NCBI GenBank assembly: GCA_000092065.1
Contig: CP000588.1
From: Ostreococcus lucimarinus
Taxonomy: Eukaryota
Length of the DNA stretch: 64,000 nucleotides
Reading direction: 5' to 3' (one strand)
Made by a program: the position numbers and the translations under genes. How positions within the stretch are numbered: the first letter of the stretch is position 1; every line of letters starts with the position of its first letter. Under the pieces are notes generated by a model, which searched no databases, was not told the origin of the DNA, and worked only from the letters and a program-made list of their open reading frames with translations. Of the stretch, positions 1,366-30,514 are shown in pieces.

Positions 1366-2460
1366 ATGCAGATTTTCGTGAAGACTCGTGCGTGACGAAG
1401 CGAAGCGAACGAACGATGCGATCGCGAACCGCGCGTCCGCGTCGCGCGCGCGTCGTCGCGAACGACGCGGAGAGACGCGACGCGATCGACGAAAGCCCTA
1501 AAGTCGCGGTGGACGACGAAACGGCGACGAGACGGTCGATGCGACGCGCTTACGGCGTGTCGTGGACGCGAAAACGATTGTGGATAATGTTTTTTGCCGT
1601 TCTCGCGCTATCGTGGAGATGGAGAGGGTGGTGGCGCGGGCGGGGGTTTGGGAGACGTGGTCATGCGATCGGGGGCGCGGCGCGGCGCGCGAGGACGAAG
1701 ACGAGAGACTGACGGTGGATGATGATGTTCGCGAACGCAGTGACGGGTAAGACCATCACCTTGGAGGTGGAGTCCTCGGACACCATCGACAACGTGAAGG
1801 CGAAGATTCAAGACAAGGAGGGTATCCCGCCGGATCAGCAGCGTTTGATCTTTGCGGGGAAGCAGCTCGAAGACGGTCGCACGCTGGCGGATTACAACAT
1901 CCAAAAGGAGTCTACGCTCCACTTGGTGTTGCGCTTGCGTGGTGGTATCATCGAGCCGTCCCTCGTTGTGTTGGCGAAGAAGACGAACGCGGACCGGGCC
2001 GTGTGCCGCAAGTACGTATATTCGAGCGACGGGGTTTTGATTTTTTCTCGGCGCTCGCCCGCTCGAAGGGGCGGCGACCTCACTCTTGCGCGCGCGCTGT
2101 CCGTTGGATTCGTCTAGCGATGTGTGCGCGTCGAGCAAGCTGCCCGAGATTTATTTCACTCCATTCACTTTGCCGGCGACGAGACTTTAACTCGTACTCG
2201 GTCATTCGCGTGTGAGACATTTGACTTTGAGCTCGTACTGACCTTTTTGTTTCTTTCTCAAACCAGGTGCTACGCCCGCCTTCCGCCGCGTGCGACGAAC
2301 TGCCGCAAGAAGAAGTGCGGTCACACCAACCAATTGCGTCTTAAGGTACGTTGTTTTGGACTTGGGAAACTCCTCGCGCGAACGCGACGGCGCCGCCGAT
2401 GAAAGGAGACTGACAATTTTCTCGCCCGATTTTTCCGCTGCTCAGAAAAAGTTGAAGTAA
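1366..2460 (+). CDS. RPL40: Ubiquitin-ribosomal protein eL40 fusion gene with four exons: 1366..1387, 1741..2011, 2267..2345 and 2446..2460.
   Basis: Exon 1 is ATGCAGATTTTCGTGAAGACTC (MQIFVKT) followed by a GTGCGT donor, and is not on the ORF track. Exon 2 starts after the CAG at 1740 and continues ...[11 protein letters not shown]...LRLRGG, then eL40 (IIEPSL...CRK). An intron with a GTACGT donor starts at 2012. Exon 3 is [26 protein letters not shown], followed by a GTACGT donor at 2346. Exon 4 is KKLK then a stop. Each intron has an ACTGAC branch point about 30 nt before the AG. Confidence 0.85.
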
Positions 2461-21304: not shown

Positions 21305-21738
21305 AGATCGCCGCCACGTCAGCGTGCCCACGCCGGGATCTTTATCTCGCCGCGCGCGGCACTTTTTCCCATATATCCGCGCGACGAATCTGTTTTACGA
21401 CGAAAAGTGAACACAAAAATCGCGACCCCGGACGCTTTTTCAGACACCCGGATTAAACCGGAAAAACCCGCGCCGGAGACCCCGCACTGCATCTCGCGCG
21501 TGCGTCGCGTGCGAACATCCCGACTCGCGCGGTGCGGTGCTGCCGGACGAAACATATTGTCCACGCGCGCGCGCGCGCTTTTGAAGCGCTGACGATCGCG
21601 CGTCGACGCGAATTCGCTGAGAATTCGAACGCACATCCGCGCGGGACGAACGTGCACTTTTCGCGCGAGTTTTTCGTCGCGCGGCGGGTGTGGCGACCGC
21701 GCGCGGACGGTGCGCGCGGGTGAATCGGACGCGGGAAT

Positions 21739-28899: not shown

Positions 28900-29071
28900 A
28901 GCGCGATAGAAATTGATGATTAATTTGTAATGACTACGAGCGATGATTATTTGATTGGTATCTTGCTGAAACTTCGAGTTCGCGCGCGGCTAGATGGACT
29001 GATGACAAAAATCGAGGTCGAACTACTCACCGCCGGTTTAGTCGTCCGGTGTACATCTTTCGCAAAGAGGT

Positions 29072-29088
29072 GGTGTTAAATGAACACC
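29072..29088 (-). promoter_or_regulatory. Predicted 3' UTR hairpin of the H2A mRNA (GGUGUU-CAUUU-AACACC), a candidate histone 3'-end stem-loop.
   Basis: It is a perfect 6-bp inverted repeat with a 5-nt loop, about 100 nt downstream of the H2A stop on the minus strand. It is nearly identical to the hairpin downstream of H2B. Confidence 0.45.
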
Positions 29089-29185
29089 ATGTTTTTTTGT
29101 GAAACACGGCGAGAGCCCGATAATCGTGCCGGGCTTTTTTCGCTATGATCTATTTTTGAAAGCCTAAAGTAACGATTTAAACCGT

Positions 29186-29551
29186 TTACTTCTTGGACTT
29201 CTTCGGCAACAAGACCGAGTGGATGTTCGGGAGAACACCACCGGCCGCGATCGTGACGGTGCCGAGGAGCTTGGAAAGCTCTTCGTCGTTGCGGATCGCG
29301 AGTTGGATGTGGCGCGGCACGATGCGCGACTTCTTGTTGTCGCGGGACGCGTTGCCGGCGAGTTCAAGCACTTCCGCGGCCAAGTATTCGAGCACGGCGG
29401 CCAAGTAGACCGGCGCACCGGCACCGACGCGCGTGGCGTACTTGCCAGCCTTCAAGTAGCGGGCAACACGGCCAACCGGGAATTGCAAGCCCGCCTTGGC
29501 GGATCGGCTCGTCGCCTTCTTGCCAGTCTTTCCTTTACCTCGTCCGGACAT
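29186..29551 (-). CDS. H2A: Histone H2A.
   Basis: The translation [68 protein letters not shown]...[13 protein letters not shown]...LLPKK covers the full length of the H2A family. It is intronless. Confidence 0.95.
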
Positions 29552-29919
29552 CGTGAGTTGTTTGTATTCGCGTGATGGAATGACGCCGGGGCAGACGCCA
29601 ACCGTCGCGACGACGAAAATTTCGCGAAAATCGACTCATCGCCTCACGCGATGTCGCCGTCGCGAGCCAATCAAAACGCGAGTGTACCCGGGGTACATTT
29701 CTAAAACGACCGATCATGATTCAAAATCGTGCGCGCAATTTCTTCATTTACACGTAATCTCGCGATTTGATTGGCTAAAAACGCGAGAGTCACTCCATTT
29801 GACGAGTCATGACCCCTAGATTGTGCACGAAAAATGCGTGAGTCGATTTCGCGAAATCGGCGCTCGTGCGCGCGCGACGACGGCGGCCGGCGTCATTCCA
29901 CGACACGAATACATTCAAA
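29552..29919. promoter_or_regulatory. Shared bidirectional H2A/H2B promoter with mirror-symmetric elements.
   Basis: aaaatttcgcgaaaatcgactca at 29617..29640 and its reverse complement tgagtcgatttcgcgaaatcgg at 29838..29860 are TTTCGCGAAA palindromes resembling E2F sites. A CCAAT box (gagccaatcaaaacgcgag) lies at 29664..29682 and an inverted CCAAT (gatttgattggctaaaaacgcgag) at 29765..29788. The symmetry centre of the TTTCGCGAAA palindrome pair (about 29740) falls at the midpoint between the two ATGs (29735). Confidence 0.5.
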
Positions 29920-30258
29920 ATGGCCAAGAAGCCCGCGCAAAAGAAGCCCTCGGGCGCCAAGAAGGTTGGACGCAAGTCCAAGTCCGAAACCTACAAGATC
30001 TACATCTACAAGGTCTTGAAGCAAGTGCACCCGGACACCGGTATCTCCTCCAAGGCGATGTCCATCATGAACTCGTTCATCAACGACATCTTCGAGAAGA
30101 TCGCCACGGAAGCCGCCAAGCTCGCGCGATACAACAAGAAGCCGACGGTCACGTCCCGCGAAATCCAAACCGCGGTCCGATTGATCTTGCCGGGTGAACT
30201 CGCCAAGCACGCCGTCTCCGAAGGCACCAAGGCCGTCACCAAGTTCACCTCCGCGTAA
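29920..30258 (+). CDS. H2B: Histone H2B.
   Basis: [112 protein letters not shown]. The start is taken at the internal ATG at 29920 rather than the upstream GTG. Confidence 0.95.
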
Positions 30259-30350
30259 GCGTTTTGAACTGGGACGTCTGTCACACTTAGAAATCAAAAA
30301 AAACCAAAATCATAGACCGCTTCTCGACCGAGAGTCTGTCTTTAAACATT

Positions 30351-30366
30351 TGGTGTTCATTAACAC
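30351..30366 (+). promoter_or_regulatory. Predicted 3' UTR hairpin of the H2B mRNA (GGUGUU-CAUU-AACACC), a candidate histone 3'-end stem-loop.
   Basis: It is a perfect 6-bp stem with a 4-nt loop about 95 nt after the H2B stop. It has the same stem sequence as the hairpin downstream of H2A. Confidence 0.45.
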
Positions 30367-30514
30367 CACCTCTGAGCGAAAGATCCGTGCCTACATAAAA
30401 CTAAACCGCTTCACCGCGCCAAAGTAAACAATTTGGCGACGCGTTTGAATTCAAAATATCCGCCCCGAGTCGCGCGCACTGCCCTATGTAAGTGTTACAT
30501 GTCTTCTACGTTGT

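What the first reader, a model, noticed from the sequence alone, without database searches (positions are those of the whole stretch)
30351..30366. H2B 3' UTR hairpin GGTGTTCATTAACACC, partner of the H2A hairpin
This is the second copy of the element described under the H2A hairpin finding. It lies about 95 nt after the H2B stop codon. Independent occurrence in the same orientation relative to each transcript argues for function rather than chance.
Basis: seen in the sequence. Interest (0 to 1): 0.5.

Follow-up and report, generated by a model that had tools for sequence, protein, structure and literature searches.

The report
Ostreococcus histone mRNA 3' stem-loop
The hairpin after the H2B gene is real and is this green picoalga's version of the well-known histone mRNA 3' stem-loop, which marks histone messages for their own 3'-end processing; it is an expected element with an unusual loop.

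Summary
The hairpin GGTGTT-CATT-AACACC exists at 30352-30367 (+), one base off the reported position. It starts at nt 94 of the H2B 3' UTR. Its H2A partner (29072-29088, -) has one extra loop U. Both share UGGUGUUCAUU(U)AACACCACCUCUnnGCGAAAGAU. The window matches Ostreococcus lucimarinus. In related metagenome contigs the same hairpin lies 63-179 nt after H2A, H2B, H3 and H4 coding regions (114 of 128 pattern hits; 3 non-histone), and also after H2A.X. The 5' flank is A-rich, ACC follows the stem, and AAAGA(U) starts 10-13 nt after the stem in 55 of 99 unique contexts. More distant relatives carry GGUGUU-UUUC-AACACC, GGUUUU-UCUC-AAAACC and GGUUGU-UCUC-ACAACC. Those give sub-threshold Rfam Histone3 hits and show compensatory stem changes. 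I read the element as the histone 3' stem-loop with a histone-downstream-element-like motif. It is a lineage variant: the loop is CAUU or CAUUY, mostly 5 nt, and Rfam RF00032 misses it. SLBP, U7 snRNA and the actual mRNA 3' ends could not be tested. A second, sequence-variable hairpin upstream of the stem-loop was also found. Interest is low to moderate.

The parts
29920..30258 (+). Histone H2B coding sequence (112 aa), intronless
   Evidence: Translation. Exact match to O. lucimarinus H2B XP_001419128/XP_001420602. Pfam PF00125 on the called gene.
30314..30341 (+). Upstream GC-rich hairpin in the H2B 3' UTR, 10 nt before the stem-loop. It is sequence-variable between genes and its function is unknown.
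   Evidence: MFE and centroid agree; -8.4 kcal/mol; z = -2.75 against dinucleotide shuffles. A comparable hairpin is present in most related histone UTRs.
30340..30351 (+). A-rich 5' flank. U30351 can pair with A30368 to give a 7th base pair.
   Evidence: Position profile over 99 unique contexts: A is 47-74% at -11 to -4 and U is 79% at -1. The 7th pair has probability 0.76.
30352..30367 (+). Histone 3' stem-loop: 6-bp stem GGUGUU/AACACC with 4-nt loop CAUU (the finding)
   Evidence: A covariance model built only from H3/H4 elements of relatives scores 30340-30393 at 37.5 bits, E about 4e-9.
30368..30371 (+). ACC(U) 3' flank. This is the inferred cleavage region, by analogy with cleavage a few nt after the stem in animals.
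   Evidence: ACC is 96-100% conserved after the stem, but the contexts were retrieved partly by a pattern ending in ACC and were filtered on AC. The cleavage site itself is inferred, not shown.
30378..30384 (+). HDE-like motif GAAAGAU, at +11 to +17 after the stem
   Evidence: Shared with H2A. AAAGA lies within 35 nt downstream of the stem in 72 of 99 unique contexts (starting at +10 to +13 in 55 of them). It lies in the 35 nt upstream in 7 of 99 and at +26 to +60 in 0 of 99.
29186..29551 (-). Histone H2A coding sequence (121 aa), divergently paired with H2B
   Evidence: Translation. Exact match to O. lucimarinus XP_001419342.
29105..29147 (-). Upstream GC-rich hairpin in the H2A 3' UTR
   Evidence: -16.6 kcal/mol; z = -2.84; MFE equals centroid.
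29072..29088 (-). H2A stem-loop GGUGUU-CAUUU-AACACC (5-nt loop), the partner element
   Evidence: The covariance model scores it at 58 bits, E about 1e-15.
29055..29061 (-). H2A HDE-like GAAAGAU
29552..29919 (.). Shared divergent H2A/H2B promoter. It is mirror-symmetric, with TTTCGCGAAA (E2F-like, my reading) and CCAAT-containing arm pairs.
   Evidence: Inverted repeats I1, I2, I7 and I8.

Best explanation
The hairpin is the histone mRNA 3' stem-loop of a Mamiellophyceae green alga; the window matches Ostreococcus lucimarinus. It is transcribed as part of the H2B pre-mRNA and folds into a 6-bp (or 7-bp) stem with a CAUU loop. It is probably bound by a stem-loop binding protein (SLBP). Together with the conserved AAAGAU motif about 11 nt further on (an HDE-like element, probably read by a U7-like snRNP or an equivalent factor), it would direct cleavage a few nt after the stem. 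That would give a histone mRNA ending in the stem-loop rather than a poly(A) tail and would couple its processing, translation and decay to S phase. Shown here: the sequence, its fold, its histone-specific and strand-specific placement, its conservation, the fixed-distance downstream motif, and continuity with hairpins in relatives that the Rfam Histone3 model detects. Inferred from what is known about the family: SLBP binding, cleavage position, absence of poly(A), and U7 involvement.
For: (1) Both window copies sit 94-98 nt into the 3' UTRs of a divergent H2A/H2B pair, in sense orientation, and share a 34-35 nt block. (2) Other Ostreococcus-type genomes keep GGUGUU-CAUU(U)-AACACC-ACC exactly, while the rest of the UTR has diverged. 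(3) A metagenome scan for the exact hairpin gave 128 occurrences. 114 of them lie 63-179 nt downstream of H2B (38), H2A (30), H4 (28) or H3 (18). 11 are too near a locus edge to judge, and only 3 are non-histone. Prokaryote genomes gave 5 hits against about 8.7 expected by chance, none next to histone genes. (4) Flank anatomy matches the family: A-rich 5' flank and AAAGA within 35 nt downstream in 72/99 contexts, against 7/99 upstream and 0/99 further downstream. ACC after the stem also fits, but the retrieval and filter partly enforced it. (5) More distant relatives have GGUGUU-UUUC-AACACC-ACCC, GGUUUU-UCUC-AAAACC-ACC and GGUUGU-UCUC-ACAACC-ACC at the same place. Rfam RF00032 Histone3 is the top hit for these at 17-26 bits, E 0.0015-2.4. 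(6) Across 15 variants, 5 of 6 stem pairs show changes on both sides, two variants have U-G wobbles (RNA-level pairing), and the G2-C15 pair never varies. (7) A covariance model built only from H3/H4 elements finds exactly the two window hairpins (58 and 37.5 bits) and nothing else above 11 bits in 64 kb. (8) The hairpin forms with probability 0.96-0.99 in the whole UTR. (9) Neighbouring non-histone genes have the algal UGUAA signal 16-31 nt after their stops. H2A has none, and H2B has one only 229 nt after its stop. (10) Poly(A)-less, stem-loop-ended histone mRNAs and SLBP are documented in green algae (PMC13130582). The general mechanism is described in PMC1635294 and PMC8600027.
Against: Rfam Histone3 gives no hit on any Ostreococcus-type CAUU(U/C) hairpin, even at E<=10. 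The loop starts with C, not U, and most family copies have 5-nt loops rather than the canonical 4. Within the Ostreococcus-type sequences the stem is invariant, so the covariation comes from more distant and paralogous hairpins that I selected because they form hairpins; that is an ascertainment bias. No SLBP gene, U7 snRNA or Lsm10/11 could be examined. Poly(A)-selected RNA-seq of O. tauri still detects induction of all core histone genes (PMC5790953), so at least some transcripts may be polyadenylated. The hairpin's folding energy is not exceptional. In a 55-nt excerpt of the H2A UTR, an alternative pairing of the 5' arm with the AAAGAUGUACACC region is the MFE structure.
Confidence: 0.8

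Rival explanations
1. It is an RNA hairpin acting on histone mRNA stability, localisation or translation, or assisting ordinary cleavage and polyadenylation, through a lineage-specific protein. There would be no SLBP/U7-type cleavage, and the histone mRNAs would be polyadenylated further downstream.
For: The loop is non-canonical and Rfam Histone3 gives no hit. Histone transcripts are seen in poly(A)-selected O. tauri libraries. A TGTAA lies 120 nt beyond the H2B hairpin. An additional upstream hairpin, which the canonical system lacks to my knowledge, suggests extra lineage-specific machinery.
Against: The anatomy (GG base, A-rich 5' flank, ACC, purine-rich motif at a fixed distance) and the continuity with Histone3-scoring hairpins in relatives point to homology with the SLBP site. 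H2A has no TGTAA in its whole 290-nt downstream spacer. In animals and slime moulds a stem-loop and a poly(A) signal coexist on the same genes (PMC8600027), so polyadenylated forms do not exclude stem-loop processing.
Confidence: 0.12
2. It is a DNA-level palindrome: a binding site for a dimeric DNA-binding protein, or a transcription termination or replication-related signal 3' of histone genes. It would not be an RNA structure.
For: The stem sequence is invariant across Ostreococcus-type genomes, as a protein-recognised DNA site would be. The element is nearly palindromic.
Against: The element is strand-asymmetric and always in mRNA sense: asymmetric loop CAUUY, A-rich flank on the 5' side only, AAAGAU on the 3' side only. 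Relatives change both stem arms in a compensatory way, and some have U-G pairs, which would be C-A mismatches on the other strand. Loop length varies from 4 to 5 nt, and is 10 nt in one case, without loss of the stem.
Confidence: 0.05
3. The similarity has no function. It would be a relic of duplication or gene conversion between histone gene copies, or chance.
For: Histone genes are prone to gene conversion. The two H2B loci of O. lucimarinus encode identical proteins.
Against: The element is shared by non-homologous UTRs of four different histone classes whose flanks are unrelated. Chance expectation in the window is 0.00. UTRs diverge between species around a fixed core.
Confidence: 0.02

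Closest known systems
Metazoan replication-dependent histone mRNA 3' stem-loop plus histone downstream element (Rfam RF00032 Histone3; SLBP and U7 snRNP)
   Same: It lies in the 3' UTR of core histone genes. It has a 6-bp stem and a 4-nt loop in this copy, GG at the stem base with an invariant second G-C pair, U-A at the top of the stem, an A-rich 5' flank and ACC immediately 3'. A purine-rich AAAGA-type motif follows at a fixed short distance. It is also present on H2A.X.
   Different: The stem sequence is GGUGUU rather than GGCUCU. The loop is CAUU, or CAUUU/CAUUC (5 nt) in most copies, rather than a U-first tetraloop of the UUUC type. It does not score with RF00032 at E<=10. The AAAGAU motif starts about 12 nt after the stem, closer than I recall for mammalian HDEs. 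A further GC-rich hairpin precedes the stem-loop. No U7 or SLBP has been shown here.
Histone gene 3' palindromes of Chlamydomonas and Volvox, with SLBP retained in green algae, moss and fern (cited and extended in PMC13130582)
   Same: Same green lineage, same position after histone genes, and the same proposed stem-loop/SLBP route to poly(A)-less histone mRNA.
   Different: In that study the canonical motif was found with RF00032 in 33 of 51 poly(A)-less histone genes across the surveyed species. The Ostreococcus form escapes that model. I found no paper in the searchable library that describes the Mamiellophyceae element.
Protist histone stem-loops (Physarum, PMC8600027; the survey of Davila Lopez & Samuelsson 2008, which I could not read)
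   Same: A stem-loop plus a purine-rich downstream motif on canonical and variant histone genes outside animals. No U7 snRNA has been identified. A stem-loop and a poly(A) signal can coexist.
   Different: Physarum loops are described as U-rich tetraloops. Here the loop begins with CA and is usually 5 nt.
Bacterial-type intrinsic terminator hairpin
   Same: A short hairpin downstream of a coding region.
   Different: There is no GC-rich stem followed by a U run. The organism is a eukaryote and the element is histone-specific. This comparison was rejected.

Membership tests
[quoted passage not shown] | Lies in the 3' UTR of core histone genes, in sense orientation, a short distance after the stop codon | tested here: met
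   It starts 94 nt (H2B) and 98 nt (H2A) into the UTR in the window. 114 of 128 metagenome occurrences lie 63-179 nt after a histone CDS.
[quoted passage not shown] | Six-base-pair stem closed by a four-nucleotide loop | tested here: met
   This copy is GGUGUU-CAUU-AACACC. Across the family the feature is only partly met. In 99 unique contexts the loops were CAUUU (42), CAUUC (32) and CAUU (13); one H3 has a 10-nt loop.
[quoted passage not shown] | G-C pairs at the stem base, with the second G invariant (an SLBP contact, from my own knowledge of the human complex) | tested here: met
   G2-C15 is invariant in 15 of 15 variants. G1-C16 is flipped to C-G only in the paralogous H2A class.
[quoted passage not shown] | U-rich loop with U at loop positions 1 and 3 | tested here: not met
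   The loop is C-A-U-U(-Y). U is at position 3, but C is at position 1. As I recall, C at loop position 1 also occurs in nematodes; I did not verify this here.
[quoted passage not shown] | A-rich 5' flank and ACC(C)A 3' flank | tested here: met
   A is 47-74% at -11 to -4. ACC is 96-100% at +1 to +3, although the search pattern and the AC filter partly enforced that.
[quoted passage not shown] | Purine-rich histone downstream element at a fixed distance 3' of the stem | tested here: met
   GAAAGAU lies at +11 to +17 in both window copies. AAAGA is enriched within 35 nt downstream: 72/99 against 7/99 and 0/99 in the control regions. That it acts as an HDE is inferred.
[quoted passage not shown] | Scores with the Rfam Histone3 covariance model (gathering score 34 bits) | tested here: not met
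   There is no hit in the window at the gathering score or at E<=10, and none on other Ostreococcus-type loci. Relatives with UUUC or UCUC loops reach 17-26 bits, which is also below gathering.
[quoted passage not shown] | Shared by all core histone classes of the organism or lineage | tested here: met
   It is found after H2A, H2B, H3, H4 and H2A.X. H1 was not examined.
[quoted passage not shown] | Stem maintained by compensatory substitutions | tested here: inconclusive
   5 of 6 pairs have both-side changes, and 0 of 500 shuffles reach the observed score. However, the variants were chosen because they form hairpins, and the stem is invariant within Ostreococcus-type sequences.
[quoted passage not shown] | Genome encodes SLBP (Pfam PF15247 RNA-binding domain) | not testable with these tools
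   SLBP is not in the window or in 1.17 Mb of fetched loci. A word-based search with the human RBD returned only short vertebrate fragments.
[quoted passage not shown] | U7 snRNA complementary to the HDE, with Lsm10/Lsm11 | not testable with these tools
   Pattern scans of the held sequence gave nothing credible. One look-alike in L072 sits in an H3 upstream region and does not match that contig's own downstream motifs.
[quoted passage not shown] | Mature mRNA ends a few nt after the stem and lacks poly(A) | not testable with these tools
   No transcript data are available. Indirect evidence: there is no UGUAA after H2A and only a distant one after H2B, yet histone reads occur in poly(A)-selected O. 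tauri RNA-seq.

The most novel reading that the evidence does not exclude
Mamiellophyceae may run a three-part histone 3'-end signal that differs from the animal one. Part one is a sequence-variable GC-rich upstream hairpin. Part two is a stem-loop whose loop is CAUUY (5 nt), implying a co-evolved SLBP. Part three is a strictly spaced AAAGAU motif, which would be a true HDE read by a still undiscovered U7-like guide RNA containing AUCUUU. That would place U7-type, RNA-guided histone pre-mRNA cleavage in the green lineage, whereas the literature I could read treats U7 as known only from animals (PMC5054213).
Probability: 0.3. Interest if true: 0.6.

Novelty: new member of a known kind. Interest (0 to 1): 0.3.

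Why it matters
Histone stem-loops, SLBP and poly(A)-less histone mRNAs are established in animals, several protists and green algae. Finding the element in Ostreococcus is therefore expected and mainly improves annotation. Standard models (Rfam RF00032) miss it, so histone 3' ends in Mamiellophyceae genomes and metatranscriptomes are probably unannotated, and poly(A)-selected transcriptomes of these abundant marine algae may under-count histone mRNAs. Two details have some further value. First, the 5-nt, C-first loop is a natural test of SLBP recognition rules. Second, the tightly spaced AAAGAU motif in a tiny, transformable alga gives a concrete handle on whether U7-like guided cleavage exists outside animals.

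Tried and rejected
(1) Rfam on the window, at the gathering score and at E<=10 around the locus, gave no Histone3 hit; the listed snoRNA and sRNA matches are noise.
(2) SLBP search. tblastn with the human RBD, and with a fly RBD written from memory, against the window and all loci found nothing. A weak 15-aa match at 21678-21722 has no Pfam support. The search for homologous proteins with the human RBD returned only 50-132 aa vertebrate-type fragments. I did not repeat it, because a relative at about 40% identity is unlikely to share enough exact 5-mers with the query.
(3) U7 search by pattern (AUCUUU + Sm-like site + hairpin) in 0.38 and then 1.17 Mb of held sequence gave nothing credible. 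The L072 look-alike was rejected.
(4) The prokaryote genome scan gave 5 hits, consistent with chance (about 8.7 expected) and with no histone genes nearby. The viral contig scan gave 0 hits.
(5) Naming the relatives by exact protein look-ups gave no taxon names, apart from a hint that L031 may be a haptophyte (its H2A clusters with an Emiliania H2A).
(6) Davila Lopez & Samuelsson 2008, Marzluff et al. 2008 and Tan et al. 2013 are not held in the library. I therefore cannot say whether the Ostreococcus element was already listed there.
(7) The terminator, DNA-palindrome and gene-conversion readings were rejected on strand asymmetry, histone specificity and compensatory changes.

Full report
OBSERVATION. 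The sequence GGTGTTCATTAACACC is present once in the window, at 30352-30367 on the + strand. This is one base to the right of the reported coordinates. The H2B coding sequence is 29920-30258, so the hairpin begins at nt 94 of the 3' UTR. H2A (29186-29551, minus strand) is transcribed divergently from a shared 368-bp promoter. It carries GGTGTTCATTTAACACC at 29072-29088 (minus strand), starting at nt 98 of its UTR. That copy has the same stem and one extra loop U. GGTGTT-N3-6-AACACC occurs twice in 64 kb against 0.00 expected. The two UTRs are otherwise poorly alignable but share UGGUGUUCAUU(U)AACACCACCUCUnnGCGAAAGAU.

FOLDING. In the whole 202-nt H2B UTR the hairpin appears in both the MFE and the centroid structure. 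Pair probabilities are 0.96-0.99 for the five lower pairs. The hairpin is not thermodynamically special: it is -5.1 kcal/mol in isolation, and the local z-score is -0.67. In a 55-nt excerpt of the H2A UTR, an alternative pairing of the 5' arm with the downstream AAAGAUGUACACC is the MFE. In the full H2A UTR the stem-loop still dominates, at 0.97-0.98.

ORGANISM AND CONTEXT. The H2A, H2B and neighbouring Sec23-like proteins are identical to Ostreococcus lucimarinus CCE9901 entries or cluster with them. The same kinesin-H2A-H2B-Sec23 arrangement recurs on many marine metagenome contigs. The window is compact and about 59% G+C. It contains no H3, H4 or SLBP gene.

COMPARATIVE EVIDENCE. A second H2A-H2B locus of the same species (L003, L005, L010) has the identical H2B hairpin followed by ACC-ACUACGAUAAAGAAU. 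Other Ostreococcus-type genomes were reached through one- or few-residue H2B/H2A variants. They keep GGUGUU-CAUUU-AACACC-ACC exactly, while the remaining UTR has diverged. The H2A.X gene carries it too.

Of these, 38 follow H2B, 30 follow H2A, 28 follow H4 and 18 follow H3, at 63-179 nt from the end of the coding-region match. Eleven are too near a locus edge to judge. Three are in unrelated, non-histone contexts with no downstream motif. The same pattern gave 5 hits in 596 Gb of prokaryote genomes, against about 8.7 expected by chance, with no histone genes nearby. It gave none in viral contigs.

A covariance model built only from the H3/H4 elements finds just two significant matches in the window: the H2A element (58 bits, E about 1e-15) and the H2B element (37.5 bits, E about 4e-9). 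The next best match scores 11 bits.

ANATOMY OF THE CONSERVED UNIT. I compared 99 unique contexts.
- The 5' flank is A-rich, and position -1 is U in 79%, which extends the stem to 7 bp.
- ACC follows the stem. This is partly enforced by the search pattern and by my AC filter.
- AAAGA lies within 35 nt downstream of the stem in 72 of 99 contexts. It starts at +12 in 32 of them and at +10 to +13 in 55, usually as AAAGAU followed by G/U and U.
- AAAGA occurs in the 35 nt upstream in 7 of 99 contexts and at +26 to +60 in 0 of 99.
- Loops are CAUUU (42; mostly H2A/H2B), CAUUC (32; mostly H3/H4) and CAUU (13; including this H2B).
The 4-nt loop of the finding is therefore the minority form.

LINK TO THE KNOWN FAMILY. 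The unit is a 6-bp stem with GG at its base, an A-rich 5' flank, ACC 3' of the stem, and a purine-rich element a fixed distance downstream of core histone genes. That is the description of the histone mRNA 3' stem-loop and histone downstream element (PMC1635294, PMC8600027).

Rfam's Histone3 model (RF00032) does not report the Ostreococcus-type hairpins, even at E<=10. It is, however, the best hit for hairpins at the same position in more distant planktonic relatives whose H2B is in the same 90% cluster. These are GGUGUU-UUUC-AACACC-ACCC (25.9 bits, E 0.0015; a second copy at 19.9 bits), GGUUUU-UCUC-AAAACC-ACC (20.6 bits) and GGUUGU-UCUC-ACAACC-ACC (17.3 bits). All are below the 34-bit gathering score. 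The first has the very stem of the Ostreococcus element with a canonical UUUC loop.

I aligned fifteen distinct variants. They show changes on both sides at 5 of 6 stem pairs, two U-G wobbles and an invariant second G-C pair. This count is biased, because I selected sequences that form hairpins, and the stem does not vary within the Ostreococcus-type set.

MECHANISM. The best-supported reading has four steps.
- The hairpin forms in the pre-mRNA.
- It is bound by an SLBP.
- AAAGAU serves as the downstream anchor, for a U7-like snRNP or another factor.
- Cleavage a few nt after ACC yields a stem-loop-terminated, poly(A)-less, replication-coupled histone mRNA.
Only the cis-elements are shown here.

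Indirect support comes from three observations. The green-algal UGUAA signal lies within 100 nt of the stop in 8 of 24 long ORFs of the window, against a background of 4.5% of 100-nt windows, and 16-31 nt after the stops of both neighbouring genes. It is absent from the 290-nt spacer after H2A and occurs only 229 nt after the H2B stop. The shared promoter is mirror-symmetric and carries TTTCGCGAAA motifs, which I read as E2F-like. Green algae are documented to have poly(A)-less histone mRNAs and SLBP (PMC13130582).

Against an exclusively poly(A)-less route, poly(A)-selected RNA-seq of O. tauri still reported induction of all core histone genes (PMC5790953). Dual stem-loop and poly(A) genes are known elsewhere (PMC8600027).

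WHAT COULD NOT BE TESTED. I could not test for SLBP, Lsm10/11 or U7 in the Ostreococcus genome, or examine real mRNA 3' ends. I could not read Davila Lopez & Samuelsson 2008, the survey most likely to have listed Ostreococcus. Full-text searches found no paper describing the element in Mamiellophyceae.

RIVALS. A DNA-level palindrome is unlikely. The element is strand-asymmetric, always in mRNA sense, tolerates 4-, 5- and even 10-nt loops, and shows compensatory and wobble changes. A non-functional relic of gene conversion is excluded, because the element is present in unrelated UTRs of four histone classes. The serious rival is an RNA element that works without SLBP/U7-type cleavage. The non-canonical loop, the poly(A)+ signal in O. 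tauri and the extra upstream hairpin keep it alive at roughly 10-15%.

EXTRA FINDING. Most of these UTRs contain a second hairpin 7-18 nt upstream of the stem-loop, set within an A-rich stretch. In the window these are at 30314-30341 (z = -2.75) and 29105-29147 (z = -2.84). Across 82 unique contexts the upstream 56 nt have a mean z of -2.4, against +0.25 for a downstream control. These were mononucleotide shuffles, so the effect may be inflated by patchy composition. A subset of H3/H4 UTRs shares GRCG-C-GGYGY...RCRCU-CGUC, with two compensatory pairs. I know of no counterpart in the animal system, and its role is unexplained.

VERDICT. The element is the histone 3' stem-loop with an HDE-like motif, in a lineage-specific form. 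It is a new member of a known kind, with variant traits: a C-first and mostly 5-nt loop, invisibility to RF00032, and an extra upstream hairpin. Interest is low to moderate. The most novel reading still open is a green-lineage U7-like system.

Noticed in passing
window 30314-30341 (+) and 29105-29147 (-); loci L071-L190: A second, sequence-variable GC-rich hairpin sits 7-18 nt upstream of the histone stem-loop in most related histone 3' UTRs. The upstream 56 nt have mean z -2.4, against +0.25 for a downstream control. A subset of H3/H4 UTRs shares GRCG-C-GGYGY...RCRCU-CGUC with compensatory pairs. Its function is unknown, and I know of no counterpart in animal histone mRNAs.
   Followed up: partly
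L003 about 2070-2095 (-); L021/L024/L029; L036/L037; L042/L049; L127: The H2A of the second H2A-H2B locus (next to SSF and HK genes) lacks the GG-type stem-loop. Instead it has a 6-bp hairpin with a C-G base 24-68 nt after the stop: CGCGUU-UAUC-AACGCG, CGUGUC-UGUA-GACACG, CGUGUU-UUUC-AACGCG or CGUGUU-UGUUC-AACGCG. These covary between species. It may be a diverged stem-loop class.
   Followed up: partly
L058-L065, about 64 nt after the stop at 2893: An H2A.X-type gene (C-terminal SQEY) carries the same stem-loop, followed by ACCAACGAAAGGAUU. This echoes animal H2A.X, which as I recall has both stem-loop and poly(A) forms.
   Followed up: no
L112, H3 3' UTR: One H3 gene has the normal stem around a 10-nt loop (GGTGTT-CAAAATCTTA-AACACC-ACC), followed by AAAAAGAU.
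   Followed up: no
window 29552-29919: The divergent H2A/H2B promoter is mirror-symmetric. It has paired arms at 29558-29589/29887-29918, CCAAT-containing arms at 29665-29687/29754-29776, and TTTCGCGAAA (E2F-like, my reading) at 29619-29629/29847-29857.
   Followed up: partly
window 30487-30499: TGTAA occurs on both strands (TGTAAGTGTTACA) between H2B and the convergent Sec23-like gene. This could be a shared bidirectional poly(A) signal and a possible back-up site for H2B read-through.
   Followed up: no
L072 272-340 (+): AAAUCUUUCAG-AAUUUUUGG followed by a very stable GC hairpin (-23.5 kcal/mol) resembles a U7 snRNA layout. However, it lies about 35 nt upstream of an H3 start codon and is not complementary to that contig's own downstream motifs, so it is probably coincidental.
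   Followed up: partly
L086, L125, L135, L147, L151 (G+C 0.68-0.74): Very GC-rich relatives carry the same GGUGUU-CAUUC-AACACC-ACC after histone genes but have no AAAGAU downstream. The downstream motif is therefore not universal among carriers of this stem-loop.
   Followed up: no
protein clusters: GenBank MAG proteins MAK94763.1 and MAK94764.1, labelled 'Euryarchaeota archaeon', are Ostreococcus-type H2A and H2B. This indicates eukaryotic contamination of an archaeal bin.
   Followed up: no
L030 H2A 3' UTR; L056 about 231 nt after H2B: One contig has GGTTTTCATTTAACACC, a G4-to-U change that breaks a stem pair; it may be a polymorphism or an assembly error. Another has a second stem-loop-like GGTGTT-CACTC-AACACC-ACA further downstream of H2B.
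   Followed up: no
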